The notes beneath the pieces were generated by a model, which saw only the letters and a list, made by a program, of their open reading frames with translations, did not search any database and had not been told where the DNA came from. Of a stretch of DNA of 64,000 nt, positions 7,145 through 54,848 are shown in pieces. The position numbers were made by a program, and so were the translations under genes. Source of the DNA: Patescibacteria group bacterium (GTDB lineage Bacteria; Patescibacteriota; Minisyncoccia; Phycocordibacterales; XYD1-FULL-46-19). The DNA is taken from positions 17,958 through 81,957 of the forward strand of contig JBMCHT010000003.1 of NCBI GenBank assembly GCA_048617235.1, in the 5' to 3' direction. The first letter of the stretch is position 1. Each line of letters opens with the position of its first letter.

Positions 7145-7147
7145 TTT

Positions 7148-9594: not shown

Positions 9595-9598
9595 AAAA

Positions 9599-34665: not shown

Positions 34666-34671
34666 TTTAAA

Positions 34672-34911: not shown

Positions 34912-34963
34912 AATTATATATTAAATAATAATTCTTAAATTAAATTTTAACATACCACTTTTT

Positions 34964-36442
34964 TTAATAAAACCACCAAGACCATTGAGGGTTATACTTA
35001 ACCGATAAATATCGACTAACAAACCATAAAAGCGGATAAAAAATAAAAACCGACCAGACCGGTAAACGCCAACTAACTTCCGGTGTTAAAATTCCCATCA
35101 TAGCCGATACTCGCAAAACCGCTTCCAACCATAACCAGGAAATGGTAGCCGGCAACAAAGCTAAACCGGTACCAATCATATTCAAAAAGGCCAACAAAGC
35201 CAGAGCCGGTAAAATAAATACCATCCAAGGAGATAATAAAATATTAGAAAATGGTGCCAACCAAGATAAATCTCCGGTCCAAATTAAAAGAAGAGGCATA
35301 ACTGCCACCTGAGCGGCTATAGAAACCGCCATTATTTCAAATATAATTTTAGTTTTTTGCCCTACCGAAAAAACAGCTAATAAACAATTAACAATTATTG
35401 GAGTTAAAACCAAAACTCCCCAAGTGGCCGCTACCGATAACTGAAAACCGATATCAAAAATAATTACCGGCTTAATCACCGTCATTAGAAAAACAGCATA
35501 AAATAAAGCTCGAAGACCGGCATAAGGCCGTCCCCACCAACCGGCCATCATAGCCAAAGATACCATTAAACCGGCTCGAATGGCCGAAGTGGCCGGACCG
35601 GTCATCAAAATAAAAAAACCGACAAGAATTAAAACAAAAAAAGGCCTCCAACCGGTTGTTATAAAATAAGAAGCTAAAACCGCCACCAAACCGGCCACCA
35701 AGCCCACATGGTAACCGGACACCACGGTTAAATGAATCAAGCCGGCTTGTTGTAAATGCTTTCTAATCTCTGAAGCAAAACCGGATCTATCTCCCATTAA
35801 AACCCCGGTCGCTAAAGAAGCATGGGGCTCAGGTAAACCGGCTTTCAAGCCACCGATTATTTTTTGTCGCCACCAAGCCAAAACACTAATTCTCTCCGTT
35901 TTTTTAATAATCTCTAAATTATAAGCATAAAGACGACCACTTAAATCTCTGGTTCTTAAATAAGAATAATCATTAAAATCATTATCGGCAAAAGGCCGAA
36001 CCGGTGGCTGATAATAACCAATTATCTTAACCTTATCTCCTAACCTAACCACCGGATATAAATCCGCTTTAACCCAAAAATTAAAATTACTTCTTTTTTC
36101 TTTAATAATAAAAGATTGACCGGTTAAACCACGATCCGGAAAACCAATCACCTCTCCCTCCCATTGTCCTTGACCGGCTACTTGATCAGAAACCGGTAAA
36201 TACCAACTTAAACCAAAGGGATAATAACCCCAACCGCAAAAACCAAAGAAAAGAATCACCGACATAGTCATCAACCGGTGACCGGTTTTAATAAATACAC
36301 TTAGTCCGGCCAATAAACCAACAAGAGCCAAAAAAAGAAAACCAACAACAGAAGACTCTTCTAAATAACCGGCTGTTACCAAACCTAAAAACCAACCGCT
36401 AACAATAATTCCCAAGACAAATCTGGCTTGGATTTTAGTCAT
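34964..36442 (-). CDS. comEC: ComEC/Rec2 competence protein, membrane channel part (DUF4131 plus competence domain)
   Basis: Polytopic membrane protein with the conserved LTVVSGYHVGLVAG region of the competence domain. 492 aa, no MBL domain. Confidence 0.7.
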   Translation of the reverse strand: MTKIQARFVLGIIVSGWFLGLVTAGYLEESSVVGFLFLALVGLLAGLSVFIKTGHRLMTMSVILFFGFCGWGYYPFGLSWYLPVSDQVAGQGQWEGEVIGFPDRGLTGQSFIIKEKRSNFNFWVKADLYPVVRLGDKVKIIGYYQPPVRPFADNDFNDYSYLRTRDLSGRLYAYNLEIIKKTERISVLAWWRQKIIGGLKAGLPEPHASLATGVLMGDRSGFASEIRKHLQQAGLIHLTVVSGYHVGLVAGLVAVLASYFITTGWRPFFVLILVGFFILMTGPATSAIRAGLMVSLAMMAGWWGRPYAGLRALFYAVFLMTVIKPVIIFDIGFQLSVAATWGVLVLTPIIVNCLLAVFSVGQKTKIIFEIMAVSIAAQVAVMPLLLIWTGDLSWLAPFSNILLSPWMVFILPALALLAFLNMIGTGLALLPATISWLWLEAVLRVSAMMGILTPEVSWRLPVWSVFIFYPLLWFVSRYLSVKYNPQWSWWFY

Positions 36443-41041: not shown

Positions 41042-42805
41042 CTATTCCACTTCTCGCCAACGGACAACCGCCGGCCCCCCGGAGGGTCCGCTGGTAAAAT
41101 TAATATTAGCCAAACCGGAATCATAAGTAACCGTAGTCGCTCCAGACATAGTAATCCGGTGGGCAGTAGCTTCATTGGCATGAGCGCTACCGGAAAAGTT
41201 TATGGTTCCTTTTTGAGCATTTAAAATAATAGCTCCGGAAGCACCGGTAATATTTACCGCCGAACCATTACCACAATCAAGCCCCAGCGGACACATACTG
41301 GTAGTTAGCAATAAAATATAACTATCACTATGACCGGAACCCTCAACCGGAGCCGAGCCTCCTAAGGTTACTCGCCCGTCGGCAATTACCACCCCGGAAT
41401 CCGACCCATACAAAGGATCTAATTTTAATTTAGCAGATCCGGTTAAGGAAATATCTCCGGTTACCCATAAAGTTCCGGTAACCGTTAAAACTCCGGAATT
41501 ATTAATAGACAAATTTCCTTCTATTTTAGCCGGTCCCAATTCCGTTTGATCCACTCCTCCGACACTAACATCACCGGCAATAACCTCCCCGGCCTCGGCT
41601 TGGCTTTTCCAAAAATCTATTTGACTTTGCTCTATAGGAAAAGGCTCCGGCTCCGGTAAAGTCTGAGAAGTATCGCAAGTTTTATTATTGCCACTACCTT
41701 CTTGGCAATACAAATTACCTTCCACTTCGGAATTATTAACGGTATAAGCGTGAGCATCCCCTTCACCGTCTGTACCGATTTTTGAATCACTAATCAAAGA
41801 ATTTTTACCTCCTAAATTTATACGGTAATAAGCCTCAACTTCGGAAATCACAATCCAGTCACCACCATATTGACCGGTCATCACTACGGAACCGGTACCA
41901 GCACCCCAATAATAAAAACGACTATGATGACTGCCACCATCTAAAACCAACCAATATGCCTCATCAGCAAATAGAGCCGGCTGATTATTAAATTCAACCG
42001 TAATCCAATCATAATCACTATTAACTTCACTTTGATTCAAATTAGCCTGAGCTATCACAGTAGTTCCCGGTTGATTATTCTCATCCAACACTATTTTAGC
42101 AGTTAAATCTGAAGGATTACCTTCTTGTTTTAAATAAACTTCTATTGAATTCAAAAAATCTGTTTCTGTTGTAGAAAATTTAATCGCCACATCTTCTGTT
42201 TCTTTAGCTTGTCCAAATTGTAAATCTGTTGTCAGTTCAGCCGACTCTTCATTGCCTGCTCCCAACCAAATTTCCGGACTACCGGCAGCTATAGCCGAAC
42301 CGGTAATAAAAGAAGCACCGGAACCTAAGATATCATTATTGGAATAAACATTACCAATTACTCCGGAGCTACCGGATAATTCAAAACCTCCCTGGCCGGC
42401 TTGAATACCGTAATTAAAAGCTACTCCTGTTCCAACTGTTAATTCTGCTTCCATGACTCTAATCCGATTATTTAAATCACCAATCGCTGTTACTCTGGTT
42501 AAACCACCGGCTAATTGCTCTGTAGTTATTTCAACTTCGGCCTCGGCTAAATCATAAGATTCTACTTGGTCTACTTCCCAACCGGAAGATAATCTATAGA
42601 CCACATCCCCCAATCCGGCCTCGGCTACATATAAACTTTGTTTAGAACGGTTTAAATCAGCTGTTCGTTGCAGTTGACTGGCAGCTACCGGTGCCACTGT
42701 AGCCAAAACAATGGCCGAAACCAACATTATTACCAAAGCGGCAATGATAATAGTTTGTCCTTGTTGTGAATTTTTAATCATATTATCTAAAAATACCGGC
42801 ACCAA
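41042..42805 (-). CDS. PilX-like minor pilin with large beta-rich C-terminal domain (putative pilus tip or adhesin component)
   Basis: N-terminus QQGQTIIIAALVIMLVSAIVLA resembles PilX/GspK-type minor pilins. About 530 aa of Gly/Ser/Thr-rich extracellular-type sequence. Alternative start MIKNSQQG at 42781. Confidence 0.55.
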   Translation of the reverse strand: MVPVFLDNMIKNSQQGQTIIIAALVIMLVSAIVLATVAPVAASQLQRTADLNRSKQSLYVAEAGLGDVVYRLSSGWEVDQVESYDLAEAEVEITTEQLAGGLTRVTAIGDLNNRIRVMEAELTVGTGVAFNYGIQAGQGGFELSGSSGVIGNVYSNNDILGSGASFITGSAIAAGSPEIWLGAGNEESAELTTDLQFGQAKETEDVAIKFSTTETDFLNSIEVYLKQEGNPSDLTAKIVLDENNQPGTTVIAQANLNQSEVNSDYDWITVEFNNQPALFADEAYWLVLDGGSHHSRFYYWGAGTGSVVMTGQYGGDWIVISEVEAYYRINLGGKNSLISDSKIGTDGEGDAHAYTVNNSEVEGNLYCQEGSGNNKTCDTSQTLPEPEPFPIEQSQIDFWKSQAEAGEVIAGDVSVGGVDQTELGPAKIEGNLSINNSGVLTVTGTLWVTGDISLTGSAKLKLDPLYGSDSGVVIADGRVTLGGSAPVEGSGHSDSYILLLTTSMCPLGLDCGNGSAVNITGASGAIILNAQKGTINFSGSAHANEATAHRITMSGATTVTYDSGLANINFTSGPSGGPAVVRWREVE

Positions 42806-43280
42806 CTATTTCCACCTCTTTTAAACCAGCTCGTTCATGCTCTAAAATAAGTCGCCAGCGTACCCCTTGATTATCCTCAACCGGCCAAAGATAAAATTCA
42901 TTCACTGTTATTTTGGACGATATGAGTGAATCGGAAACATCGGTGGAGGTTTGCCATAACAGGTCACCTTCGGCTGTAGCTTGAAATTCTTCTTGACCCT
43001 CTGAGGTTATTAAAGTTAAACGACCGAAATCGGTTTCCAAATCACTATTGGTTAAATCATAACTACCGGCTTGTTTAATTGTTCTGGTTAATTGCTCAGA
43101 AACGGCTATTACCGTATCATTTAACTCAGCTCGAGCTTTAAAATCTGCCGTTAAACGCCAAATTAAAAGAAAAACAGAAACAAAAACAACCATCAATAAT
43201 CCCAACAAAGCAACATAAACCATCATCTCTATTAAAGTAAAACCGTTGGTTCTTTTTTTATTAAATAAATATTTAAACAT
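42783..43280 (-). CDS. Type IV prepilin-like protein (minor pilin)
   Basis: Leader MFKYLFNKKRTNG, then FTLIEMM (F+1, E+5) and a hydrophobic helix. Start set at M32 of the ORF-track ORF. Confidence 0.7.
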   Translation of the reverse strand: MFKYLFNKKRTNGFTLIEMMVYVALLGLLMVVFVSVFLLIWRLTADFKARAELNDTVIAVSEQLTRTIKQAGSYDLTNSDLETDFGRLTLITSEGQEEFQATAEGDLLWQTSTDVSDSLISSKITVNEFYLWPVEDNQGVRWRLILEHERAGLKEVEIVGAGIFR

Positions 43281-43284
43281 AAAA

Positions 43285-43791
43285 CTAATCACTAGCTCCA
43301 AAATAATTATTAAAAAGATAAGCCTCCAATTCTTCAAATTGCTCTCCGGATCTATCTTGCCACCTGACTTCAATTACCACTTTTAAAGTATCCGGGTCAA
43401 TTGAACCGTCGGTTGTCAGACGACCATTGGCATCTCGTTCCACCTGACTAAAAATAATTTGCCGATCAAAACCAAAAACTGATTCAGTTTCGGCTTCGGC
43501 TAAAACCCAGGTATTATCTTCAGCCGACCAAAAAACATCATAAGCCAAACCGAAAGTTAAATCCTGAAAATTATCCGACCAATCATTAGCTAAATAAAAT
43601 AAAGCTTCAGCTGCTTCCTCAGTATAAAAAGAAGCCACCGACCGATTAAGAGCCAACTGTCCGGCTTGATTGGCTCGTGTTAGTCCACCAATTAAAACCA
43701 TAATTACTACCGAAGCCAAAGTCACCCCGATTAACACTTCCAACAAAGACCAACCGGATTTTCCAGAAACACTTTTATTTAAAAAATTCAT
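43285..43791 (-). CDS. Type IV prepilin-like protein (minor pilin)
   Basis: Leader ...SGKSG, then WSLLEVLIG (E+5) and a hydrophobic helix. 168 aa. Confidence 0.65.
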   Translation of the reverse strand: MNFLNKSVSGKSGWSLLEVLIGVTLASVVIMVLIGGLTRANQAGQLALNRSVASFYTEEAAEALFYLANDWSDNFQDLTFGLAYDVFWSAEDNTWVLAEAETESVFGFDRQIIFSQVERDANGRLTTDGSIDPDTLKVVIEVRWQDRSGEQFEELEAYLFNNYFGASD

Positions 43792-43816
43792 TATTAAAAA
43801 TATTTTACCATAATCT

Positions 43817-44281
43817 TTAAGAATCAGTCATCGTTCTAATCTGACCGGCGGCCGAGACTGAAATGATTCGCTTTTTATCCGGATTGGTTGCCGACCACAA
43901 AACAACCTCTCCCACCGCTAATGGCCGGCCGGTTAAACGCTTAAAAATTACTTGTGACTGACCATTAAAATCTGCATTTAAAACCAAACCGGCCGGTAAT
44001 AAATACTGTCGATTATTCTCTTTACCTTCCTCATATTCCAAGCCACTGAATAAAATTAAACGATTTTCTTCAAAATAAACCCCATAATTGGTTCGCTGAA
44101 CAGAAGATAAAGTTTTAGATTTAGCGGTTTCCAAAACCTCAACTACTAAAATTTCGGCTGTTTCCAATTGAGTTGTTTTTTGAAAACTCCCAATAGTCCA
44201 CAAAGCTATACCGGCTAAAATAGTTAAAATAACTATAACTATAATTAATTCCAATAAAGAAAAACCTGATTGTTTTATCAT
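43817..44281 (-). CDS. Type IV pilin (candidate major pilin)
   Basis: Leader MIKQSG, then FSLLELIIVIVILTILAGIAL (class III signal: G-1, F+1, E+5). 154 aa. Directly downstream of pilC. Confidence 0.75.
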   Translation of the reverse strand: MIKQSGFSLLELIIVIVILTILAGIALWTIGSFQKTTQLETAEILVVEVLETAKSKTLSSVQRTNYGVYFEENRLILFSGLEYEEGKENNRQYLLPAGLVLNADFNGQSQVIFKRLTGRPLAVGEVVLWSATNPDKKRIISVSAAGQIRTMTDS

Positions 44282-44285
44282 AAAA

Positions 44286-45494
44286 TTATATAGCTTCAGT
44301 TAAAGAATACATTGGACCAATCATTGATAATGCAAAAAATCCAACCGCCACTCCAATTACCACCATCAAAACCGGTTCAATCACAGTAGAAAGATTTTTA
44401 GTTACTTGATCCACTTCAGACTCAAACCAATCAGCTCCTCGAGTAAGCATGGCCGGCAGACGACCGGTTTCTTCTCCCACTTCTGTTAGCTCTGAAGCCA
44501 AGGGTAAAAATAAATGCTCGTAATCTCTAAAAACTCCGGATAGAGTTTCTCCGGTTTGAACTCTTTTTTTAGCTTCTTGTAAAGCCTCTTTATAATAATA
44601 ATTTTGAATTACTTGTTCGGTAATTTTTAAAGTTTCTATCATACTAACTCCGGAAGTAATCAGAGAGCCGGTAGTTCTTAAAACCACCGCCGAATTAACT
44701 TTACGAGTTAAACCGGAAATAAATGGTATATGCAACAATAACCAAGATAATATTTTTTTACCAACGGGTTGTCGTAAGCCAACAACCACTCCTAAAACCA
44801 AAATCAATAAAATTCCCAAAAGTGGTAACCAAAAAGCCGCCAACCAACTACTGATAGCCATTACTATTTGAGTGGAAATAGGCAATTCCGCTTCCAGTTC
44901 TTCAAACATCATAGTTAAATTGGGCACCAAGAAAATCATCATCAAAGCTCCTACAACTACAATGGCACAAATTATAATTGCCGGATAAATCATAGCCCCT
45001 TTAACTTGGCGTCTTAAATTATAATTTTTACTCAATTGATCAGCTATTGCTTGTAAAGATTCCGGTAAGCCACCAGATTCTTCACCCACAGCCACCATAG
45101 AAATAAATACCGGCGGAAAAGCCGAAGGGAAAGCTTTTAAAGCCTTAGATAGACTGTCTCCTGAATTAATTCTTTCAATTACTGCTTCCAAAATCCGAAC
45201 CAAAGTCTGGCTCTTAGATTGTCGCTTAATCACCTCCAATGACCGAGTTAAAGATAAGCCGGCACTTAACATGGCAGATAAGTTGCTGGCCAATAAAATT
45301 TGGTCTTTAATTCCTAAAGTAGGTTCCAACCATCTATCCCAAAATTTAACTCCGGCTCCCTTAGCTGGCCGAGCCGAAACTAAAATTTTACCTTCAGTTC
45401 TCAACTGTCGAGCCAATTCATATTTATCTTTAGCCTCAACTACGCCGGTATAATCCTGACCGGCTTCATCTTTGGCTTTGTAATCTAATTTCAT
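44286..45494 (-). CDS. pilC: Type IV pilus platform protein PilC (GspF family)
   Basis: Two T2SSF repeats with 3 TM helices. 402 aa. Adjacent to pilB. Confidence 0.85.
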   Translation of the reverse strand: MKLDYKAKDEAGQDYTGVVEAKDKYELARQLRTEGKILVSARPAKGAGVKFWDRWLEPTLGIKDQILLASNLSAMLSAGLSLTRSLEVIKRQSKSQTLVRILEAVIERINSGDSLSKALKAFPSAFPPVFISMVAVGEESGGLPESLQAIADQLSKNYNLRRQVKGAMIYPAIIICAIVVVGALMMIFLVPNLTMMFEELEAELPISTQIVMAISSWLAAFWLPLLGILLILVLGVVVGLRQPVGKKILSWLLLHIPFISGLTRKVNSAVVLRTTGSLITSGVSMIETLKITEQVIQNYYYKEALQEAKKRVQTGETLSGVFRDYEHLFLPLASELTEVGEETGRLPAMLTRGADWFESEVDQVTKNLSTVIEPVLMVVIGVAVGFFALSMIGPMYSLTEAI

Positions 45495-45499
45495 AAAAT

Positions 45500-47257
45500 T
45501 TATTCACTAATAACACGTAAAACTTCTTCAATGGCGGTTACTCCCATAGCCGATTTAACTAAACCATCTTCTAACATAGACAACATACCCTCTTTTCTGG
45601 CTTGTTCATCTATACTGGAAGTACTGGCTCCGGTTAAAATAAGCTCTCTAATAGCCGGTGAAAAAGTTAAGACTTCCTGAATTCCAATACGACCGGAATA
45701 GCCGTCAGATTCTTTACCGGTTGATTTTGGTTTATAAAATTCAAGCTGATGCCAATCAAAATTATCATTATTTTCAATCACTTCATTGTCTATCAATATT
45801 TGTTTTAATCTATCTTCTTTAATATGTCGAGACAAACTCTTAAATTCTTGTTCGGTTAAAGTTGTTTTTTGTCGGGATTGATCTAAACGCCTAACCAACC
45901 TCTGGCCAACCACCACTTTGACGGTAGAGGCCAATAAAAACGGCTCTACCCCCATATCCACCAATCGCGGTAAAGCCCCGGCAGCTGAGTTGGTATGTAG
46001 AGTAGATAATACCAAATGCCCGGTTAAAGCGGCATTTATAGCTAAAGAGGCCGTTTCCGAATCCCTAATCTCTCCTACCATAATAATATCCGGATCTTGA
46101 CGCACTAAAGATCTTAAACCGGCTGAGAAAGTTAAACCAATATCCGGTTTAACTTGAGTCTGATTAATCCGAGGCATTTGGTATTCTATGGGATCCTCAA
46201 TAGTAGAAATATTAACATCCGGTGTATTTAATAATTCCAATAAAGCATATAAGGTAGTAGATTTACCGGAACCGGTGGGACCGGTAACTAAAATTAAACC
46301 GGTCTTGTTTCTAATAGCCTCTTGCATTCTTTCCAAACTTAAATGATGAAAACCGACTTGTTCCAAAGATAAACCTTGACTGTTATCCGGCAACAATCTC
46401 ATAACTATTTTTTCACCATAATAAGTTGGTAAAATAGATACTCGAAAAGAAATATTTCCTCTGGCACTTTTAATTTTAAACCGGCCATCTTGTGGCAATC
46501 TTTTTTCATCCAAACGCAAATTAGACAAAACCTTTAAACGAGCGGTTAAACCAGGGCCCACCTCTTTAGGTAAAACCATGGCATCATGCAAAATTCCATC
46601 AATCCGGTAACGAATTATCACTTCTTGTTCAAAAGTTTCAATATGAATATCCGAAGCTTTTTGCATCACCGCATGAGACAATAAAGTATCAACAATTCGT
46701 ACCACCGGCAAATCTTCAGCTAACTCCTTCAATCCGCTTTCACTTATTTCCTCATCTGCTCCTATTTTTTTCAAGGATTTAACTTCCTCTTTAATTATAT
46801 CTCCAAATTCCGCCTTTAAACTTCTTTGGTATTGCAACAAAGCTTCTTTTATAGATTCTGTATCTGTTAATCGGGGTAAAATCCGTAAACCAACCGACTT
46901 TTTAATAAAATCAATCGCGGTTAAATCATCCGGATCCAACATAGCCACCTCTAGTTCTTTATCGTTTTTATTAAAAGCCACTATATTATGCTTGCGAGCC
47001 ACCGGTTCCGGAATTAAAGACAAAACCTCTTTATCTATTTTGGCTTTTTTTAAATTAACAAAAGGCACTCCCAAAACATAAGCTTTAACTTTTCTTAACT
47101 CATCTTTGGAAACATAACCATCAGATACCAAACGATCAAATAACTTTTTTTCATCTTCTCCAACTTCAGTTAATAAACGATCAAAGTCCCCGGCTTTAAT
47201 TAAACCGGTATCCAACAAAAACTTTTTAACTTCCAAGAGGCTGGTTTTCATTACCAT
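45500..47257 (-). CDS. pilB: Type IV pilus assembly ATPase PilB (GspE family)
   Basis: Walker A GPTGSGKSTT. GspE N-domain. Tetracysteine region absent or variant. 585 aa. Confidence 0.88.
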   Translation of the reverse strand: MVMKTSLLEVKKFLLDTGLIKAGDFDRLLTEVGEDEKKLFDRLVSDGYVSKDELRKVKAYVLGVPFVNLKKAKIDKEVLSLIPEPVARKHNIVAFNKNDKELEVAMLDPDDLTAIDFIKKSVGLRILPRLTDTESIKEALLQYQRSLKAEFGDIIKEEVKSLKKIGADEEISESGLKELAEDLPVVRIVDTLLSHAVMQKASDIHIETFEQEVIIRYRIDGILHDAMVLPKEVGPGLTARLKVLSNLRLDEKRLPQDGRFKIKSARGNISFRVSILPTYYGEKIVMRLLPDNSQGLSLEQVGFHHLSLERMQEAIRNKTGLILVTGPTGSGKSTTLYALLELLNTPDVNISTIEDPIEYQMPRINQTQVKPDIGLTFSAGLRSLVRQDPDIIMVGEIRDSETASLAINAALTGHLVLSTLHTNSAAGALPRLVDMGVEPFLLASTVKVVVGQRLVRRLDQSRQKTTLTEQEFKSLSRHIKEDRLKQILIDNEVIENNDNFDWHQLEFYKPKSTGKESDGYSGRIGIQEVLTFSPAIRELILTGASTSSIDEQARKEGMLSMLEDGLVKSAMGVTAIEEVLRVISE

Positions 47258-47292: not shown

Positions 47293-47595
47293 TTAATCGG
47301 AATAGTTTTTATCTTTTATATCTTGAGCCAAGCGATACATTTTTTCTTCCTCAGTAGTTACTCCCAAATTATGTTCTCTTTGGTTATCTACAGCTTGCAT
47401 AAAAACAATAGCCGCTTCCAAATATAAATCATAATCTTCCAAAGGGATATCTAAAGGTTCTCCCCGATAATCTTGATTGACTTTATTCAACCGATCCCAA
47501 GCCTTGTCTCTGCTCAACTCCGAACCGGTCTGCTCTTCCAATAAGTCTTGAGCTGTTTGTTTCATGAAGTTTTTATCTGAATTTTCATGAAACAT
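47293..47595 (-). CDS. Hypothetical acidic cytoplasmic protein (100 aa)
   Basis: ORF with no TM helix and no recognisable motif, between pilB and the large surface protein. Confidence 0.4.
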   Translation of the reverse strand: MFHENSDKNFMKQTAQDLLEEQTGSELSRDKAWDRLNKVNQDYRGEPLDIPLEDYDLYLEAAIVFMQAVDNQREHNLGVTTEEEKMYRLAQDIKDKNYSD

Positions 47596-47596
47596 A

Positions 47597-50095
47597 TTAC
47601 CAATTTATTAAAGGTTTCCATTGATAATAATTATTTTTATTAGCAGCACATATATATACCTGATCAGCGGTTTCTCGTTCACCACTAACTAAATTATCTA
47701 AATATTTTATTGCCCCCTTATTTGCGCCAGTACACCTTCCTAACTCGTTTATAAGACCGTTTGATAGTGAACTTCTTTCTATTATAGGTAAAACTAATCC
47801 GGAAGCATCAGCCATATTTACTTTACCACCAAAATAAGATGTACCTTTTACATTAAACATACTCGGCCTTTTATCATCATTACTCTGATATCCTATACTT
47901 ACTTTTTTTTCTTCTATCTTAAGAGCTTCTAAATGAGGCCCATTCCAACCTGTACCGACATCATTTTTGTCTTTCGAGATAAAAGAAAATGAACCATTAT
48001 AATCAATCCAGGTACCTGCACGACCGGAGTTTATTGCCATTGCTGATCGATTATTTCTTATTAAAACACCATCACTATCACCAGCGACCCCTGTGTTTAT
48101 ATCTAACTTTTTTCTAGGATCCGTAGTCCCCATTCCTACATTTCCTTCTTCAGTCAAACTCATAACGATATGATGTCCAGCCTCATCATGTCTTGTAAAA
48201 TCTAAATTATTCGTTTTTAACTCAAATTCCCCAGAATCAGTTCCGCCACTAGTTTTTTTACTAACAGACCAATAATTTCTTTCTTCCCCATCTGTGCCCA
48301 TATTTTCTGATAAAACTAAAGCAGCAGAATTACCTGCAAAAGTAGTGGGATTTTTTTGAATTAAAACAAGATTTGCTCCTGAATTAACACTATCGTCTTC
48401 CCTAATAGTAAATTTAGGGACTGAACCATTTTTAAAAACACCTCTATCTTCTGCGTCACCACCAACTACTACAGAGCTACTTGGTTCTCTTGTATATAAA
48501 ACATCTCCTTCGTCTGTTTCATCTAGATCCCAAAAACTTTCTATTTGAGCAGCATTAATAATACTTAAGAATGAAGCACAGCTTGCACTAACACCATCTA
48601 AAATATCTAAAGTACATAATTGACCATTAAAAGAAGTCATAGAATTTCTATCTGCAGAAAAACCATCTGAACTTCCAAACATTTCAGCTTCAAAAGACAT
48701 CTCATCTTTGGAATTAAAAGTAAAACTTTTAAAATTACTTCCAGATATAAAAGAGTTATTTCCTCCTGTCTTAATTACTTTTATATCGGCTTCTCCAGAT
48801 CTTATTTCTCCATCACCAACTGCTAAATCACCTGCCACATCAACATTATCAAATAATCTTACATGACGAACACCATCCTGACGGACAGCTCCTACTATAT
48901 CTAAAACTTTATTTGTTCCTGTTAAAGGACTAACTCTAATAACTGATTTATCGCTACTCTCAGTAGCCCTATCTTCGTGTTGTATAACATTAATATCTCC
49001 AGATCTTATTTCTCCATCACCAACTGCTAAATCACCTGCCACATCAACATTATCAAATAATCTTACATGACGAACACCATCCTGACGGACAGCTCCTACT
49101 ATATCTAAAACTTTATTTGTTCCTGTTAAAGGACTAACTCTAATAACTGATTTATCGCTACTCTCAGTAGCCCTATCTTCGTGTTGTATAACATTAATAT
49201 CTCCAGATCTTATTTCTCTATCTATATCTAAAGCAAATTCTGGATTATTAACACCTATCCCCACATTACCATTTTCACGATAAATGTTACCATCTTCTGT
49301 TTCTTCCCATAAAGAACCGCCTACACCTTCTATGTCTTTAGGGTCTGTCCAAAAACCAATACCATCAACATCTGAAGTTAAAATTTTATTCTCATCAGGA
49401 TCCCCCCCTCTTATTCTTATTTGACCATCTATATCTAACTCAGCTTGAGGATTATCTGTTCCTATTCCAATTCTAGAATTTTCATCTTCTCCAGAAATAG
49501 TCATTCTGGTAATTGGACTAAAGCCTGTAGAACTACTAGAATCAACTACCATTTCTTTAAAATTTAAACCATCTTTTATCGGTAATAATATTTCTCCTAT
49601 ATAAGCTAAATCTGTATTCAAACTATCAGCTTTCACACCGCCATCTACATGTAATTTACTCGCCGGATCATTTGTTCCAATTCCCACATTACCGTTTTCA
49701 CGGTAAATATTGTCACCATCTTTTTCCCACAAAGAACCACCTAAACCTGGTATATCTTGAGGATCAGTCCAAGTAGCTTTTCCTTCATCGTTTACAGAAG
49801 TTAAAATTTTACCAGAACCAGCATTGCCTTTTTCGGGAAAATAAAATAATTCCAAAAAGCGACCTTTTGTAATTAACAAACTATCTCCTATAAACAATGG
49901 AGCCGAAATATATTTATTTGATCGAATACGTCCTTCCTTTGTTTGACCTTGACTCCCCGTATGTATCGGCGGTTCCGGTTGATCATTCGGAGGTGATTCC
50001 GGCGCCGGAGTAAAACTATAAACAGTAATAGTCGAAGCACCTAAAACAGTTATTGTTACCAAAAGATATAATCCCCAGTTTTTATATTTATTCAT
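47597..50095 (-). CDS. Large secreted or surface protein with tail-fibre-like repeats (GNVGIGT..P..L.V motifs)
   Basis: N-terminal signal anchor. Repeated GGSLWE..G.NIYRENGNVGIGTNDP motifs. Internal exact 68-aa duplication. 832 aa. Confidence 0.6.
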   Translation of the reverse strand: MNKYKNWGLYLLVTITVLGASTITVYSFTPAPESPPNDQPEPPIHTGSQGQTKEGRIRSNKYISAPLFIGDSLLITKGRFLELFYFPEKGNAGSGKILTSVNDEGKATWTDPQDIPGLGGSLWEKDGDNIYRENGNVGIGTNDPASKLHVDGGVKADSLNTDLAYIGEILLPIKDGLNFKEMVVDSSSSTGFSPITRMTISGEDENSRIGIGTDNPQAELDIDGQIRIRGGDPDENKILTSDVDGIGFWTDPKDIEGVGGSLWEETEDGNIYRENGNVGIGVNNPEFALDIDREIRSGDINVIQHEDRATESSDKSVIRVSPLTGTNKVLDIVGAVRQDGVRHVRLFDNVDVAGDLAVGDGEIRSGDINVIQHEDRATESSDKSVIRVSPLTGTNKVLDIVGAVRQDGVRHVRLFDNVDVAGDLAVGDGEIRSGEADIKVIKTGGNNSFISGSNFKSFTFNSKDEMSFEAEMFGSSDGFSADRNSMTSFNGQLCTLDILDGVSASCASFLSIINAAQIESFWDLDETDEGDVLYTREPSSSVVVGGDAEDRGVFKNGSVPKFTIREDDSVNSGANLVLIQKNPTTFAGNSAALVLSENMGTDGEERNYWSVSKKTSGGTDSGEFELKTNNLDFTRHDEAGHHIVMSLTEEGNVGMGTTDPRKKLDINTGVAGDSDGVLIRNNRSAMAINSGRAGTWIDYNGSFSFISKDKNDVGTGWNGPHLEALKIEEKKVSIGYQSNDDKRPSMFNVKGTSYFGGKVNMADASGLVLPIIERSSLSNGLINELGRCTGANKGAIKYLDNLVSGERETADQVYICAANKNNYYQWKPLINW
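48792..49199. repeat. Perfect tandem duplication, 2 x 204 bp, in-frame within the 832-aa surface protein gene
   Basis: Identical 204-nt units encoding IRSGDINVIQHEDRATESSDKSVIRVSPLTGTNKVLDIVGAVRQDGVRHVRLFDNVDVAGDLAVGDGE twice. A third, diverged partial copy follows. Confidence 0.9.
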
Positions 50096-50135
50096 AATTT
50101 TTTTGCCGATACATATTAATTTTTAATAATTTTTA

Positions 50136-50552
50136 TTATTGAGCTGTTTGATGTAATACTTCTTCAATTTCTTCATCGGTCATCGTTTCTTCAGCTGAAG
50201 TAGTTTCAGCCATTTGGCGTAATATTTCTTCAATTTCTTCATCAGACATCATATCTTCAAGAGAAGTCGTTTCAGCCATTTGGCGTAAGGCTTCCTTAAT
50301 TTCTTCTTGTTCTTCTTCAGTCAATTCTTCATTTTCCTCGTACATTTGACTTAGAGCTTCATCGATTAAGGCCTCTTCAGTCATTTCATCAGTGGTATCT
50401 ACCGGAGCTTCAACTTGATCTCGGCTTACCCAGGCCAAAACAGCCAAAACAATAATGGCTAATAAAATTACTCCGACCACTAAAGATAAAACCTTGTTTG
50501 GTCCACCTTGGTTATCGGTGGAATTAACTGTTTGATTCATTTCATTATCCAT
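50136..50552 (-). CDS. Acidic single-pass membrane protein with two ~22-25 aa repeats (EEIEEILRQMAETTS)
   Basis: N-terminal TM helix VLSLVVGVILLAIIVLAVLAWV followed by an Asp/Glu-rich repeated tail. 138 aa. Confidence 0.45.
   Translation of the reverse strand: MDNEMNQTVNSTDNQGGPNKVLSLVVGVILLAIIVLAVLAWVSRDQVEAPVDTTDEMTEEALIDEALSQMYEENEELTEEEQEEIKEALRQMAETTSLEDMMSDEEIEEILRQMAETTSAEETMTDEEIEEVLHQTAQ
50160..50290. repeat. Two imperfect ~63-66 bp tandem coding repeats
   Basis: TTCTTCAATTTCTTCATC...GTTTCAGCCATTTGGCGTAA occurs twice. Confidence 0.6.
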
Positions 50553-50788
50553 AAAATTTAATTTAAATTAATTTTAATAATACTTTTAGTTGCCCGCTTA
50601 AACAGACATAATAATCTAGACTTTATTTTACCAAAAAAAAGACCAATAAACCAAACTTTTTAACCCTTTCTGTTGATAACTTCCCGGCTTGGCTTTTTTT
50701 TATCTTTATGTTATCGTTAAATTGTCTGTAAGATGTATCCGGAAGCTAAAGCTCTCCGGATTTTTATTTAAAAAATAACAATATTATT

Positions 50789-51949
50789 ATGATAGATCTT
50801 AAAATGTTAAAATCCGCTCTGGAGCAATTGGAAGAAGAAAAAAATATTCCCCGAGAGCGAATTGTAGGAGCGATTGAAGATTCTTTAGTGGCGGCCTATA
50901 AGAAAGATTACGGTAAAAAGGGACAAATCATTAAAGCTAAAATAGATTTAGATACCGGTCAAACTGAATTCTATAAAGTAAAACTGGTGGTTGATGAGTC
51001 TACGGTCAGATTTGATGAGGAAGAACCCCTCAATGAAGAAGATGACAGAATTAAATTCAATGAGGAATCCCATATTACTCTAGAAGATGCCAAAAGAATT
51101 AAAACCAACATCCAAGTAGGTGAAGAAATTGTTTTTCCTTTGGATACCGAAGAAGACTATGGCCGGATTGCCGCTCAAACAGCTAAGCAAGTTATAATTC
51201 AAAAAATCCGAGAAGCGGAAAAAGACTCCATTTGGGAAGAATATTCCGGTCGTGAGGGAGAAATTTTATCCGGTAAAGTTCAAAAATTGGAAAGAGGTAA
51301 TGTCTATGTGGATTTAGGCCGAACTCTGGCTATTTTACCTTATGAAGAGCAAATCCGTGGTGAATATTACCGTCAAGGTGAAAGAATTAGAGCTTATTTA
51401 TACGAAGTGGAAGAAAGTCCCAGAGGAGTGGTTTTACGTTTATCTCGTTCTCATCCTAAATTTGTGGAAAAACTATTTGAAATGGAAGCTCCGGAAATTG
51501 CCGCTGGCACAGTGGAAATTAAAGCTATTGCTCGGGAAGCCGGTGGTCGAACCAAGATGGCTGTTTGGTCAGAAGATCCCAATATTGATCCGATTGGTTC
51601 TTGTGTGGGACAAAAAGGATCCAGAGTCTCAACAGTTATTAATGAATTGGGAGGTGAAAAAATAGATATTATAGAATGGTCATCCGATCCGGATCAGTTT
51701 ATCACCAATGCCCTGTCTCCGGCTAAAATTTTATCTTTGAACTTGGATGAAAAAGACAAAACAGCTCAAATAGAAGTTACGCCCGATCAATTTTCTTTGG
51801 CTGTCGGTCGTGGTGGTCAAAATGCTCGTGTCGCCGCCAAATTAACCGGTTGGAAAATAAATATTTCCGTACCCCCGGAAATGGCCGAAACCGAAGAACA
51901 AACTGAAGCCGTTTCCGCTGATCCGGAAACTGAAACAAATAATAATTAA
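50789..51949 (+). CDS. nusA: Transcription termination/antitermination factor NusA
   Basis: NusA N-domain, S1 and two KH domains. Acidic C-terminal tail. 386 aa. Confidence 0.92.
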   Translation: MIDLKMLKSALEQLEEEKNIPRERIVGAIEDSLVAAYKKDYGKKGQIIKAKIDLDTGQTEFYKVKLVVDESTVRFDEEEPLNEEDDRIKFNEESHITLEDAKRIKTNIQVGEEIVFPLDTEEDYGRIAAQTAKQVIIQKIREAEKDSIWEEYSGREGEILSGKVQKLERGNVYVDLGRTLAILPYEEQIRGEYYRQGERIRAYLYEVEESPRGVVLRLSRSHPKFVEKLFEMEAPEIAAGTVEIKAIAREAGGRTKMAVWSEDPNIDPIGSCVGQKGSRVSTVINELGGEKIDIIEWSSDPDQFITNALSPAKILSLNLDEKDKTAQIEVTPDQFSLAVGRGGQNARVAAKLTGWKINISVPPEMAETEEQTEAVSADPETETNNN

Positions 51950-53168: not shown

Positions 53169-53266
53169 AGATATAAATATTAACTATAATAAGTTGAAAT
53201 TATTGTTATTTAGTATTATCATTTAATCAGAAGAACTTCGTCCTTTGCCAACCAAAAAAAGACCTT

Positions 53267-53277
53267 GAAAGGAGGTC
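53267..53277 (+). promoter_or_regulatory. Strong Shine-Dalgarno (GAAAGGAGGTC) 5 nt upstream of the ATG of the GC-rich ORF
   Basis: Perfect AAAGGAGG core. Native neighbouring genes lack SDs. Confidence 0.6.
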
Positions 53278-53280
53278 AAA

Positions 53281-54342
53281 ATGCGACTGGTAACTGCAAC
53301 TTTCCTTTTTTGGGGGGTGATGATGGTGGCGCTGGGACAACCCGGGCAATACACCGAGTTTGCCCCGGAACTCCTCGAAGAGGGGCGCGATTTTGTCGTG
53401 CTCCGGACGGAAGACTCGTCAGTGAAAGTCTTTCGTGAAGTGGAGGATTACTTCGGACCCGACTCCCGACTGTCTAATGGTCTTTATGACCTGAAGACCA
53501 AGGGAGCCACGACCTCGCCCTGTTTCAACGGCGGGCCAGCTATGTACTACGAGCACATTTTCAACGGTGCAGCCGTTGATAACTGGCGCTCAGAGTACGC
53601 TCCTGAGTTGAATGATCAGATCTTCACCGATCTGACAAACAACTCGGTCAAGGTGGTCTGGCCGAGAGCAACCTCCTTGTGGAACCTCAGGTCCAGCATC
53701 ACCTATGAGTTAGGTGATGACGGGGTAGACTTCACCTTTGAAGTCAAAACTCCGGCCACAGAGGCAGAAGTGGCCGAGATTGCCCCGTTGGGATGGTTTG
53801 GGTGTATGTTCGCAAGCTACACCCGTTCCATTCATAGCTCCGACAGGAGCTTCCAATTCTATGGGGTGGAATCCCAGGTCATGGATTTCCGCTGGTTCCA
53901 AGTCTCCATTCCCAACTTCGGCTGGAAAAAGTTTGGAGACTCAAAGGAAAGAGGAACTATCGGGCCTTACAGGGTTGATCCCCTTCCGTACGAAGAAGAG
54001 GCTGGCGGCATAAACGCACATCAGAGGGAGGATCTACACAGTCTCTCCCCAATGTACTTCAGTGTCGTACAGCCCAACGAGGGCTCACCGCCGATGATAT
54101 TTGCCATGCTTTTCGACCAGACACAGTCTGTTCGATTTGCATTGTTCGGAGGAGATGAGTTAGGCGGTCCCACCGCCTACGACTGGCACTTCATCGTCCG
54201 GCAGCCCCAGCCAGATACGAAGTATCGACTGAGGGCGAAGCTCATCTATGAGCCTCTACCGGAAGAAGGGATGTCCGAGCGTAAATTACGTTCGTATATC
54301 CAACAAAAGTGGTTTTGGTGGTGGTGGTTTCTCCACCATTAA
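53281..54342 (+). CDS. Secreted hypothetical protein on GC-rich island (C-terminal aromatic tail KWFWWWWFLHH)
   Basis: Signal peptide MRLVTATFLFWGVMMVALG. 353 aa. GC-rich with strong SD and its own terminator. No family recognised. Confidence 0.55.
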   Translation: MRLVTATFLFWGVMMVALGQPGQYTEFAPELLEEGRDFVVLRTEDSSVKVFREVEDYFGPDSRLSNGLYDLKTKGATTSPCFNGGPAMYYEHIFNGAAVDNWRSEYAPELNDQIFTDLTNNSVKVVWPRATSLWNLRSSITYELGDDGVDFTFEVKTPATEAEVAEIAPLGWFGCMFASYTRSIHSSDRSFQFYGVESQVMDFRWFQVSIPNFGWKKFGDSKERGTIGPYRVDPLPYEEEAGGINAHQREDLHSLSPMYFSVVQPNEGSPPMIFAMLFDQTQSVRFALFGGDELGGPTAYDWHFIVRQPQPDTKYRLRAKLIYEPLPEEGMSERKLRSYIQQKWFWWWWFLHH

Positions 54343-54365
54343 ACCGTTTCTGTGTTTTTGTTCTC

Positions 54366-54395
54366 AACCCCGTACTTTCTAGGTACGGGGTTTTC
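54366..54395 (+). terminator. Intrinsic terminator (AACCCCGTAC-TTTCTA-GGTACGGGGTT + TTTT)
   Basis: Perfect 10-bp stem followed by a T-run, 24 nt after the stop of the GC-rich ORF. Confidence 0.7.
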
Positions 54396-54506
54396 TACTC
54401 TGTAAAAATTAAACGATGTAGATATTAACGGTCAAGCCTGGTCAAAAAAAACAAAATCAGGCATAATAGAAAAAGATTAAATTATTAGTTTAAGCTTTTA
54501 TAAATT

Positions 54507-54848
54507 ATGGAAGAAAAAGATTTCAATCAAAATGAAAATCCAACAAATACGGACATGGGGGTTCCCGAGCAATCGGCTTCCGTCGGTTCTCCGGAGGACA
54601 ACTCCAAAGGTCCGGTTGTTGGAATTGTTTTGATTATCATCATCCTCATTGTCGGAGGTATCTTCGTTTTCACCAACCGAGAAGAAATTTTGGAACCGGT
54701 GGAAGAAGATGTTGAAGATATAGCAAATGAGGAAGATATGGAGGAATTAGAAAATGATATTTCAGACTTGGAAGAAATCGATGAAAATATCGATACTCAA
54801 ACCCAAGAACTGGAAGATGAATTGGATATTATTTCCGAAGAGGAATAA
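54507..54848 (+). CDS. Acidic single-pass membrane protein
   Basis: TM helix VVGIVLIIIILIVGGIFVF followed by a Glu/Asp-rich tail. 113 aa. Confidence 0.45.
   Translation: MEEKDFNQNENPTNTDMGVPEQSASVGSPEDNSKGPVVGIVLIIIILIVGGIFVFTNREEILEPVEEDVEDIANEEDMEELENDISDLEEIDENIDTQTQELEDELDIISEEE

What the first reader, a model, noticed from the sequence alone, without database searches (positions are those of the whole stretch)
47293..50560. Tail-fibre-like 832-aa surface protein with a perfect 204-bp in-frame tandem duplication, bracketed by small acidic proteins, immediately upstream of the pilus genes
The ORF has a signal anchor and repeated GNVGIGT-NP--L-V motifs that I recognise from phage tail-fibre and CPR surface proteins. 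Within it, 48792-49199 is two 100% identical 204-nt units (68 aa each), with a diverged third partial copy. Identity that perfect implies a very recent duplication, copy-number variation, or an assembly collapse or expansion. The gene is co-directional with, and directly upstream of, pilB-pilC-pilins. It is flanked by a 138-aa acidic TM protein with its own 25-aa repeats and a 100-aa acidic protein. It is a candidate pilus-associated adhesin or receptor-binding protein for host attachment.
Basis: partly seen in the sequence, partly recalled or inferred. Interest (0 to 1): 0.65.

Follow-up and report, generated by a model that had tools for sequence, protein, structure and literature searches.

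The report
Fibre adhesin gene beside pilus operon
An uncultured ultrasmall (Patescibacteria) bacterium carries, at the head of its pilus operon, a surface fibre protein related to the prey-recognition fibres of Bdellovibrio and to phage tail fibres; it has a very recent in-frame duplication, and it is a plausible host-attachment protein of a known kind, not a new kind of system.

Summary
An 832-aa ORF (47597-50095, minus strand) contains two identical 204-nt units (48792-49199). The 138-aa and 100-aa acidic ORFs flank it, and pilB-pilC-pilins follow directly on the same strand.

The duplication junction is not an assembly chimera. Two other assemblies of the same strain break or gap exactly where a de Bruijn loop predicts. 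The copy number is therefore at least 2 but is not proven to be exactly 2. Three 19-nt direct repeats bracket the units, which points to slippage or unequal recombination.

The protein is a member of the tail-fibre-like beta-helical fibre class. Its GNVGIGTxxPxxxL motifs are the "capping loops" of Bdellovibrio MAT (mosaic adhesive trimer) fibres: profile against PDB 8OND gives E=8e-22, the query alone gives 4e-4. A Thermus phage distal tail fibre also matches (1e-5). The protein lacks the S74 chaperone domain and the Bdellovibrio N-terminal domain. Its central region (aa 430-640) has no detectable relative, and only weak capping-loop matches occur beyond it.

Linkage to the pilus genes is not conserved for this gene: in relatives, nusA usually abuts pilB. 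In five relatives, however, the same slot holds other large secreted proteins, and two other Patescibacteria place MAT-like genes beside pilus genes.

Verdict: a new member of a known kind, of moderate interest.

The parts
47597..50095 (-). 832-aa fibre gene (MAT-like, without S74). Order of parts: N-terminal hydrophobic segment, beta-helix modules with capping loops, duplicated unit x2, orphan central region, last beta-helix module, small C-terminal tip.
   Evidence: ORF. The homology map shows relatives only for aa ~90-300 and weakly 640-740. PDB profile hits to Bdellovibrio MAT fibres.
50015..50077 (-). N-terminal hydrophobic segment (aa ~7-27, after MNKYKNW). It is either a Sec signal peptide or a signal anchor.
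   Evidence: It is the only strong Kyte-Doolittle peak in the protein. It has no N_methyl pilin motif. Whether it is cleaved was not determined.
49652..49693 (-). Capping-loop motif 1, GNVGIGTNDPASKL (aa 135-148).
   Evidence: Regex. It aligns to Bd2133 SGNLGLGTAAPTSALHV and GLVGINTAAPLQKLHV. PHROG tail and tail-fibre hits fall on this stretch.
49439..49477 (-). Capping-loop motif 2, RIGIGTDNPQAEL (aa 207-219), followed by IRIRGG..ENKILTSDVDGIGFW.
   Evidence: It aligns to Bd2133 GNVGIGATAPTAKLEVAGTI...GSVQTTAASGAATW. This is the highest-pLDDT part of the model (aa 200-260, pLDDT 75-90).
49229..49270 (-). Capping-loop motif 3, GNVGIGVNNPEFAL (aa 276-289), immediately before the duplicated unit.
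48792..49199 (-). Perfect tandem duplication, 2 x 204 nt (68 aa each; aa 294-429 in the EIRSG register).
   Evidence: The C-terminal part of the unit (LDIVGAV..G.R.VRLFDNVDV.G) weakly resembles a module that is single-copy in homologues (E 0.002-0.01).
49200..49218 (-). First of three 19-nt direct repeats GAGAAATAAGATCTGGAGA. The others are at 48996-49014 and 48792-48810. They are 204 nt apart and bracket both units.
   Evidence: This is the signature of slippage or unequal recombination between pre-existing short repeats.
48176..48808 (-). Central region, aa 430-640, with no detectable relative anywhere. It contains Cys494 and Cys506.
   Evidence: The only hit is the same gene's fragment in GCA_964402165.1.
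48104..48145 (-). Capping-loop motif 4, GNVGMGTTDPRKKL (aa 651-664). A degenerate fifth loop (KKVSIGYQSNDDKRPSMFNVKG) lies near aa 731-752.
   Evidence: PHROG hit on aa 632-678.
47600..47839 (-). C-terminal tip, about 80 aa (aa 753-832), with Cys788 and Cys816 and ending ...YYQWKPLINW. It is the presumed binding end. Its fold is unknown.
   Evidence: No significant homologue. Model pLDDT is about 50-69. No Peptidase_S74.
47293..47595 (-). 100-aa acidic, non-hydrophobic orphan protein. Its start codon is 1 nt after the fibre gene's stop codon.
   Evidence: Searches found no family and no homologue other than itself. A role as a fibre-assembly helper is speculation from position alone.
50136..50552 (-). 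138-aa protein with one TM segment and a very acidic tail. It has 22-aa repeats (66-nt period, 50153-50306) and lies 40 nt upstream of the fibre gene.
   Evidence: The same build occurs at window 54507-54848 and at L016 3187-3657. The similarity looks largely compositional.
41042..47257 (-). Type IV pilus genes directly downstream and co-directional: pilB 45500-47257, pilC 44286-45494, pilin-like 43817-44281, 43285-43791 and 42783-43373, and a conserved 587-aa protein at 41042-42805.
   Evidence: Pfam T2SSE, MshEN, T2SSF and N_methyl. The 587-aa protein is conserved at the pilus loci of relatives. No terminator-like site lies between the 100-aa gene and pilB.
50789..51949 (+). nusA, divergent. 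It marks the ancestral neighbour of pilB, so the three-gene block 47293-50552 is an insertion between nusA and pilB.
   Evidence: In L009, L012, L013, L015, L017, L023, L026, L032 and L072, nusA lies 0-440 bp from pilB.

Best explanation
The 832-aa gene most likely encodes a cell-surface fibre of the MAT / phage-tail-fibre class. An N-terminal signal or anchor would take it across the membrane and possibly tether it there.

The shaft is built from beta-helix modules bounded by GNVGIGTxxPxxxL capping loops. By analogy with solved relatives it assembles as an intertwined homotrimer. A lineage-specific distal part (aa 430-832, ending in a small Cys-containing tip) would bind an epitope on another cell, presumably the host of this ultrasmall bacterium.

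The gene, together with two small ORFs, was inserted between nusA and pilB. From the spacing it is probably co-transcribed with the type IV pilus machinery, so the fibre and the pilus would be made together.

One shaft unit of 68 aa has very recently duplicated in frame through recombination or slippage between 19-nt direct repeats. Scaling from Bd3182 and Bd2133 dimensions, this adds roughly 3 nm of shaft per copy and makes the locus prone to further changes in copy number.

- **Shown:** the ORF, the repeat, the junction in independent assemblies, homology of the shaft modules, absence of S74, absence of orthologous synteny.
- **Inferred:** trimer, surface display, adhesion, co-transcription, effect on length.
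For: - **Structural relatives.** A profile of the modules hits solved Bdellovibrio MAT fibres: 8OND Bd2133 E=7.7e-22, 8OML 4.5e-12, 8OJN 1.6e-9, and also 8ON4 and 8OL4.
- **Query alone.** Residues 121-300 hit 8OND at E=4.2e-4 across a whole domain between two capping loops.
- **Phage relatives.** Thermus phage phiFa 'distal tail fiber protein' matches at E=1e-5. PHROG tail and tail-fibre families match at 3e-9 and 3e-7 on the motif.
- **Wider family.** More than 12,000 representative proteins share the module, often many times per protein, and many end in Peptidase_S74.
- **Known function of the family.** PMC10769870 shows that MAT fibres are surface-displayed trimers with conserved shafts and swapped adhesive tips, and that one binds prey glycans.
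- **Operon layout.** One N-terminal hydrophobic segment. Gaps of 40, 1, 35 and 5 nt, with no terminator-like site before pilB.
- **Duplication.** The two copies are identical, and 19-mers occur three times at 204-nt spacing. Logan contigs of SRR11308339 end exactly 30 nt (k-1) from the predicted branch points. GCA_964402165.1 has a 100-N gap whose edges fit a k=55 loop.
- **Length variation in a relative.** A related Parcubacteria fibre differs by an in-frame 42-aa repeat block between samples.
- **Positional support.** All 5 large proteins with an N-terminal hydrophobic segment in 31 related loci sit immediately upstream of pilB. MAT-like genes lie next to pilus genes in L055 and in L089/L090.
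Against: - No confident structure was obtained. Mean pLDDT was 45.8 for the full length and 56.8 for aa 600-832.
- The Foldseek hits to MAT fibres rank first but are not significant, with E>0.2.
- Trimerisation, surface exposure and binding are all untested.
- The central region (aa 430-640) has no homologue and the tip only non-significant matches, so nothing supports an adhesive fold there.
- The conserved N-terminal domain of Bdellovibrio MATs is absent, and the mode of anchoring is unknown.
- The gene is found in one strain only, so selection on it cannot be assessed.
- Two of the Patescibacteria-type fibre loci examined (P0106, P0086) are not near pilus genes.
Confidence: 0.6

Rival explanations
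1. The protein is a dedicated accessory of the type IV pilus, for example a pilus-tip or pilus-base adhesin or a pilus-dependent exported substrate. On this view its position in front of pilB reflects direct physical cooperation.
For: - It is co-directional with pilB and tightly spaced.
- Five relatives carry other large secreted proteins in exactly this slot, and those are the only such proteins in 31 loci.
- L055 has three MAT-like genes heading a pilM/N/O-pilB operon.
- P0047 lies directly after PilD and pilin genes.
- Caulton et al. raise possible interplay between MAT adhesion and type IV pili.
Against: - It has no pilin-type signal and no PilY1/PilC domain.
- No orthologue sits at any related pilus locus, and nusA abuts pilB in about 10 relatives, so the pilus works without it.
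- A different, conserved 587-aa protein follows the minor pilins and is a better candidate pilus partner.
- Other MAT-like genes are not near pilus genes.
Confidence: 0.2
2. The 'exactly two perfect copies' is an assembler's minimal traversal of a loop. On this view the real genome, or the real population, has a different or mixed copy number: three or more copies, or a mixture of one and two.
For: - The unit (204 nt) is longer than usual k-mers and longer than 150-nt reads.
- GCA_964402165.1 leaves a 100-N gap inside copy 2.
- The Logan contigs stop at both edges of the unit.
- A graph with one loop is conventionally resolved as two copies (my inference).
Against: - The junction itself must be present in the reads of two assemblies. 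At least two copies therefore exist in at least part of the population.
- Nothing found here argues for more than two copies.
Confidence: 0.3
3. The gene is a structural envelope or S-layer-type protein, or a general biofilm or surface-attachment fibre. On this view it has no role in recognising a specific host cell.
For: - The module family is very widespread, including in free-living Bacteroidota with T9SS neighbours.
- No ligand or fold is known for the tip.
Against: - The gene is present in only one lineage, and its distal half diverges fast or has been swapped in. That pattern fits recognition proteins rather than core envelope parts.
- The characterised relatives are recognition fibres (PMC10769870).
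Confidence: 0.12
4. The gene is a prophage or phage-remnant tail-fibre gene and has no cellular function.
For: PHROG tail families and a Thermus phage tail fibre match the module.
Against: - No phage genes are nearby. The neighbours are nusA, ppa, tig, clpP and the pilus genes.
- It has an N-terminal secretion or anchor segment.
- IMG/VR holds no relative.
- GC content is only slightly below that of the neighbours.
- The ORF is intact and translationally coupled to the next gene.
Confidence: 0.04

Closest known systems
Bdellovibrio bacteriovorus MAT (mosaic adhesive trimer) fibres, NS74 subgroup (Bd2133, Bd1334; PDB 8OND, 8OML; Caulton et al. 2024, PMC10769870)
   Same: - Beta-helix shaft domains are bounded by the capping-loop motif, with direct sequence matches.
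- An N-terminal export signal.
- Similar size: the short MATs are 627-843 aa.
- No S74 domain at the end.
- A conserved shaft with a non-conserved distal end.
- Found in a bacterium that lives on other bacteria.
   Different: - It lacks the ~130-aa N-terminal domain found in all 21 Bdellovibrio MATs.
- The host bacterium has no outer membrane, so anchoring must differ.
- The tip has no recognisable fold.
- Only one such gene occurs in the 64-kb window, against a repertoire of 21 in Bdellovibrio.
- It is encoded at the head of a type IV pilus operon.
- It carries a fresh tandem duplication in the shaft.
- Trimer formation and surface display are not shown here.
Phage tail fibres and tailspikes with a C-terminal S74 intramolecular chaperone (K1F endosialidase 3GW6, T5 pb1 4UW8); Thermus phage phiFa distal tail fibre
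   Same: The shaft module and capping-loop motif are shared. Many cellular homologues of the module end in Peptidase_S74.
   Different: - No S74 domain.
- No phage context.
- It has a cellular secretion signal.
'Tail fiber domain-containing protein' / YadA-head-containing giant surface proteins of Bacteroidota and Patescibacteria (e.g. P0103, P0109, P0106, P0047)
   Same: The same repeated module pair, GNVGIGT..P...L and GKVLTSDA.G.A.W, at 30-54% identity over aa 90-300.
   Different: - Those proteins are usually longer, with up to 40 modules.
- They often carry collagen, YadA_head or S74 parts that are absent here.
- Region aa 430-832 here has no significant counterpart.
Large secreted proteins upstream of pilB in related Paceibacteria (L006, L016, L018, L019, L021)
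   Same: - The same genomic slot, between nusA and pilB where nusA is in view (L006, L016, L018, L019).
- The same orientation.
- An N-terminal signal.
- In L016, the same small acidic TM protein in front.
   Different: - They are not homologous to the 832-aa protein.
- They share NHL, Ig-like, beta-helix, CARDB and TSP1-type modules with each other.

Membership tests
MAT (mosaic adhesive trimer) superfamily | Beta-helical fibre domains bounded by capping loops with the consensus V-G-G/N-pi-x-x-P-x-x-x-L | tested here: met
   There are 3 exact and 2 degenerate motifs. The profile hits 8OND at E=7.7e-22, 8OML at 4.5e-12 and 8OJN at 1.6e-9. The query alone hits 8OND at E=4.2e-4 over a whole domain between two loops.
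MAT (mosaic adhesive trimer) superfamily | Homotrimeric, intertwined fibre | not testable with these tools
   Only monomer AlphaFold2 was available. The low pLDDT (45.8) is what an obligate trimer modelled as a monomer might give, but that proves nothing.
MAT (mosaic adhesive trimer) superfamily | Conserved beta-rich N-terminal domain of ~130 aa directly after the signal peptide (present in all 21 B. bacteriovorus MATs) | tested here: not met
   Residues 1-88 match almost nothing in the 5.8-billion-protein search or the exhaustive 1.8-billion-protein search. I made no direct comparison with a Bdellovibrio N-terminal domain, because none is in the PDB.
MAT (mosaic adhesive trimer) superfamily | Export signal and display on the cell surface | tested here: inconclusive
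   An N-terminal hydrophobic segment is present. Cleavage, anchoring and surface exposure cannot be tested here.
MAT (mosaic adhesive trimer) superfamily | Variable C-terminal adhesive tip (S74 or another fold) | tested here: inconclusive
   No S74 domain, so it would be of the NS74 type. The tip has no homologue and no confident model.
S74-type phage tail fibre / tailspike | C-terminal Peptidase_S74 intramolecular chaperone | tested here: not met
   The Pfam scan of the whole protein finds no PF13884 even at E<=1.
S74-type phage tail fibre / tailspike | Encoded in a phage or prophage | tested here: not met
   The neighbours are housekeeping and pilus genes. No relative is present in IMG/VR.
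Type IV pilus adhesin (PilY1/PilC-type or pilin-fused) | PilY1/PilC domain or class III (N-methylation) pilin signal | tested here: not met
   Neither is found in the 832-aa protein. N_methyl is found in the neighbouring pilins.
Type IV pilus adhesin (PilY1/PilC-type or pilin-fused) | Conserved gene linkage with pilus genes across relatives | tested here: not met
   No homologue lies at about 30 related Paceibacteria pilB loci, and nusA abuts pilB in about 10 of them. Non-homologous proteins fill the slot in 5 loci.
Trimeric autotransporter adhesin (YadA family) | YadA head repeats and a C-terminal outer-membrane anchor | tested here: not met
   No YadA_head or anchor domain occurs in this protein. 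Some homologues do carry YadA_head.

The most novel reading that the evidence does not exclude
Paceibacteria may keep a swappable 'cargo slot' between nusA and pilB. Unrelated or mosaic giant secreted proteins, here a MAT-like fibre, would be exchanged in this slot and expressed together with the type IV pilus. The slot would then act like the receptor-binding-protein cassette of a phage and set which host the epibiont can attach to. Tandem duplication of shaft units would provide rapid tuning of fibre length.
Probability: 0.25. Interest if true: 0.65.

Novelty: new member of a known kind. Interest (0 to 1): 0.4.

Why it matters
How uncultured Patescibacteria find and hold their hosts is largely unknown. 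Type IV pili and unnamed 'adhesins' are the only handles so far (PMC10633639, PMC12206443).

This locus supplies a concrete candidate: a fibre homologous to the experimentally characterised prey-recognition fibres of Bdellovibrio, apparently co-expressed with the pilus. [quoted passage not shown]

The slot pattern upstream of pilB, if it holds up genome-wide, would give a simple rule for locating host-range determinants in these genomes.

The duplication is a small but clean example of microhomology-mediated growth of a fibre. It is also a reminder that copy numbers of repeats longer than the reads should not be trusted in MAGs.

Tried and rejected
- **Family scans.** Pfam, NCBIfam and PHROG scans of the three ORFs gave no curated family. 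The only PHROG matches were at motif level.
- **phmmer of the full protein against PDB.** Nothing at E<=1. Only the profile and a shorter query worked.
- **Exact-protein look-up of the 832-aa product.** Not on record.
- **Homology search of aa 430-832 and of the 100-aa ORF.** Only self hits.
- **IMG/VR and JGI metagenome scans with the protein.** No relatives, so population variation in copy number could not be examined.
- **AlphaFold2.** The full-length run with a 36-row alignment and the aa 600-832 run with a 20-row alignment both gave models too poor to use.
MAT fibres rank first, but E>0.2. I did not count this as evidence.
- **The listing of cluster members.** It was meant to obtain the taxonomy of homologues, but returned no names.
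- **Literature search for the motif string.** Nothing found.
- **Prophage tail fibre.** Rejected on context.
- **Trimeric autotransporter.** Rejected on domain content.
- **A true third diverged repeat copy.** Rejected.
- **Promoter and terminator scan.** Counts were no higher than in shuffled sequence. I used it only to note that no terminator-like site lies before pilB.

Full report
**1. The observation**

The minus strand carries a 138-aa ORF (50136-50552), an 832-aa ORF (47597-50095) and a 100-aa ORF (47293-47595). These are followed by pilB (45500-47257), pilC (44286-45494) and three pilin-like genes, all co-directional, with gaps of 40, 1, 35 and 5 nt. Pfam confirms T2SSE/MshEN, T2SSF and N_methyl for the pilus genes.

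Tandem Repeats Finder and the repeat finder both report two 100% identical 204-nt units at 48792-49199. The units are in frame and encode residues 294-361 and 362-429.

Two details of the finding need correction:
- The 'third diverged copy' is only a boundary repeat. The 19-mer GAGAAATAAGATCTGGAGA occurs three times at 204-nt spacing (49200-49218, 48996-49014, 48792-48810). Similarity beyond it extends about 13 residues and no further.
- The repeats in the 138-aa protein have a period of 66 nt, or 22 aa.

**2. Whether the duplication is real**

The same locus is present, 100% identical over more than 20 kb, in NCBI assembly GCA_964402165.1 and in Logan contigs of run SRR11308339.

- **NCBI assembly.** A 100-N gap replaces window 48847-48959, inside copy 2.
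  - The left contig runs through one full unit and then 36 nt past the unit-to-unit junction.
  - The right contig starts 55 nt before the end of the unit.
  - Since 36 nt plus the 19 shared nt equals 55, this is the geometry of a loop in a k=55 graph (my inference).
- **Logan assembly (k=31).** One contig ends at 49189. That is 30 nt after the single mismatch (49219) that distinguishes 'flank into unit' from 'unit into unit'. The other contig starts at 48821, which is 30 nt before the point (48791) where 'unit into unit' and 'unit into flank' diverge.

Both branch points therefore exist in reads, so the junction is genuine and at least two copies exist in at least part of the population. Neither of these assemblies resolves the number of copies. 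Two copies is simply the minimal path through such a loop, so '2' remains unproven.

The layout [19]-185-[19]-185-[19] is the expected product of slippage or unequal recombination between two pre-existing 19-nt direct repeats. The complete lack of differences between the copies means the event is very recent.

**3. What the protein is**

Curated family libraries give nothing except PHROG 'tail protein' and 'tail fiber' hits. Those are confined to residues 126-162 and 632-678.

Database searches gave the following:
- A word-seeded search of 5.8 billion proteins and an exhaustive phmmer run over 1.8 billion representatives find more than 12,000 relatives. All align only to residues ~90-300, with weak matches to 640-740.
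- In those relatives the module is repeated up to 40 times. It is often combined with Peptidase_S74, YadA_head or collagen segments.
- Residues 430-832 retrieve only the gene's own fragment.

A profile built from the query and 35 module fragments (alignment A1) hits solved structures of Bdellovibrio bacteriovorus fibres:

| PDB entry | Protein | E-value (profile) |
|---|---|---|
| 8OND | Bd2133 | 7.7e-22 |
| 8OML | Bd1334 | 4.5e-12 |
| 8OJN | Bd3182 | 1.6e-9 |
| 8ON4 | (fibre protein) | 2.6e-7 |
| 8OL4 | Bd2439 | 7.9e-5 |

Myelin regulatory factor matches weakly as well. Query residues 121-300 alone hit 8OND at E=4.2e-4, aligned from one capping loop to the next. A Thermus phage 'distal tail fiber protein' matches at 1e-5.

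These Bdellovibrio proteins are the MAT (mosaic adhesive trimer) superfamily of Caulton et al. 2024 (PMC10769870):
- They are surface-displayed, intertwined trimeric beta-helix fibres.
- Their domain edges carry capping loops with the consensus V-G-G/N-pi-x-x-P-x-x-x-L.
- Their N-terminal end is conserved.
- Their tips are swapped between members (S74, novel beta-sandwiches, TNF-like, C-type lectin). One tip binds Proteus glycans.

**4. Anatomy of this member**

- **Residues ~7-27:** the only hydrophobic segment. It may be a signal peptide or an anchor; I could not tell which.
- **Capping loops:** at residues 135, 207, 276 and 651, with a degenerate one near 731.
- **GKILTSxxDGxxxW motifs:** at residues 94 and 235.
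- **Duplicated 68-aa unit:** starts right after the third capping loop. Its C-terminal part (LDIVGAV..G.R.VRLFDNVDV.G) weakly resembles a module that is single-copy in homologues (E 0.002-0.01).
- **Residues 430-640:** an orphan region.
- **Last ~80 residues:** a small tip with Cys788 and Cys816 and no significant relative.
- **Absent features:** no S74 domain, and no counterpart of the ~130-aa N-terminal domain of the Bdellovibrio MATs.

Structure prediction did not help:
- AlphaFold2 monomer models were poor, with mean pLDDT 45.8 and 56.8. Only residues ~90-300 were confident.
- Foldseek ranked MAT fibres first, but without significance.

From the published dimensions (135 aa for 60 Å in Bd3182, 370 aa for about 150 Å in Bd2133), one extra 68-aa unit would add about 3 nm of shaft. 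This is an inference.

**5. Context and linkage**

A scan of species-representative genomes with PilB returned relatives at 56-63% identity. By their record titles most are Patescibacteria, including Paceibacteria groups such as Taylor-, Yonath-, Nomura- and Kaiserbacteria; several records carry only generic labels.

- None of these loci has a homologue of the 832-aa, 100-aa or 138-aa proteins.
- In about ten of them, nusA lies 0-440 bp from pilB in divergent orientation. The three-gene block 47293-50552 is therefore a lineage-specific insertion at that junction.

The slot is nevertheless not random:
- In five relatives (L006, L016, L018, L019, L021), a 1193-2296-aa protein with an N-terminal signal sits immediately upstream of pilB on the same strand.
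- These five are the only proteins of at least 800 aa with an N-terminal hydrophobic segment among 523 ORFs in 31 loci.
- They carry NHL, Ig-like, beta-helix, CARDB, TSP1 and InlB-B-type parts. They share mosaic segments with each other but none with the 832-aa protein.
- L016 also has a small acidic TM protein in front of its large protein.

MAT-like genes also lie next to pilus genes in two other Patescibacteria:
- In L055, three tandem short fibres precede a 734-aa gene, pilM/N/O-like genes and pilB.
- In L089/L090, a 1373-aa fibre follows PilD and pilin genes.

Two other fibre loci (P0106, P0086) have no pilus neighbours, and two more are Bacteroidota-type, with T9SS-signal neighbours. The sample is small and partly biased by how the loci were found, so the association is suggestive only.

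A conserved 587-aa protein after the minor pilins (41042-42805) is the better candidate for a constant pilus partner.

The small flanking ORFs add little:
- The 100-aa protein is an orphan. Its start codon is 1 nt after the fibre's stop codon, so a chaperone role like that of phage tail-fibre assembly proteins is conceivable, but nothing supports it.
- The 138-aa protein belongs to a type that is common here (TM segment plus acidic tail). Another example lies at 54507-54848, and the similarity looks largely compositional.

**6. Mechanism, rivals and novelty**

- **Best reading (about 0.6).** This is a surface MAT-like fibre made together with the pilus. Its divergent distal end would bind a host-cell epitope. 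A shaft unit has just duplicated through microhomology.
- **Rivals.**
  - A true pilus accessory (0.2).
  - A copy number other than exactly two (0.3; this concerns only the repeat).
  - A general envelope or attachment fibre (0.12).
  - A phage remnant (0.04).
- **Novelty.**
  - The family is known, and its wide distribution among predators and Bacteroidota is published.
  - Patescibacteria are not listed in that table, and no paper in the held library links the two.
  - I therefore class this as a new member of a known kind.
  - The placement in a pilus operon, the different N-terminus and the orphan distal region are its particular features.
- **Open lead.** The most interesting unresolved question is whether the nusA-pilB slot is a general cassette site for host-range proteins.

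Noticed in passing
window 53200-54400 (ORF 53281-54342, + strand, 353 aa): GC content is 0.51-0.53 against 0.30-0.40 in the surrounding sequence. The ORF has no Pfam hit on record. It may be a recently acquired foreign gene.
   Followed up: no
window 54507-54848 (+), and L016 3187-3657: Two further small proteins have the same build as the 138-aa ORF: a short N-terminus, one TM segment and a very acidic tail. The L016 example also sits directly in front of a giant secreted protein upstream of pilB.
   Followed up: partly
window 41042-42805 (-): A 587-aa protein after the minor pilins has no Pfam family but is conserved (30-46% identity) at the pilus loci of many related Paceibacteria. It is the constant large protein of this pilus operon.
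   Followed up: partly
L006 3645-8795, L016 3732-8873, L018 3066-9956, L019 6329-9910, L021 6068-9859: Giant (1193-2296 aa) signal-bearing proteins lie immediately upstream of pilB in five related genomes. They are mosaic with each other (up to 69% identity over ~90-aa segments) and carry NHL, Big_7, Beta_helix, CARDB, TSP1 and InlB-B parts. They are the only such proteins in 31 loci.
   Followed up: partly
L055 2-4067, then 4104-11728: In Parcubacteria MAG BM519, three tandem short capping-loop (MAT-like) genes are followed by a 734-aa gene, pilM/N/O-like genes and pilB, all on one strand.
   Followed up: partly
L086-L088 2547-3998 and 8001-13400: A bAvd plus reverse-transcriptase pair, typical of a diversity-generating retroelement, lies 4-5 kb upstream of two tandem MAT-like fibre genes in a Parcubacteria genome. 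The second fibre is 846 aa in one sample and 888 aa in two others. The difference is an in-frame 42-aa block of 14-aa YadA-head-like repeats.
   Followed up: partly
window 33793-36442 (-), and L089 729-3060: ComEC (Competence domain) and a metallo-beta-lactamase-fold gene lie within ~10 kb of the pilus genes, both here and at the P0047 fibre locus. The pilus may therefore serve DNA uptake as well as, or instead of, adhesion.
   Followed up: no
window 42783-43373 and 43285-43791 (-): The mechanical ORFs of two pilin-like genes overlap by 89 nt. The public annotations start the downstream gene later (165-169 aa), so the 196-aa ORF is probably over-extended at its 5' end.
   Followed up: no
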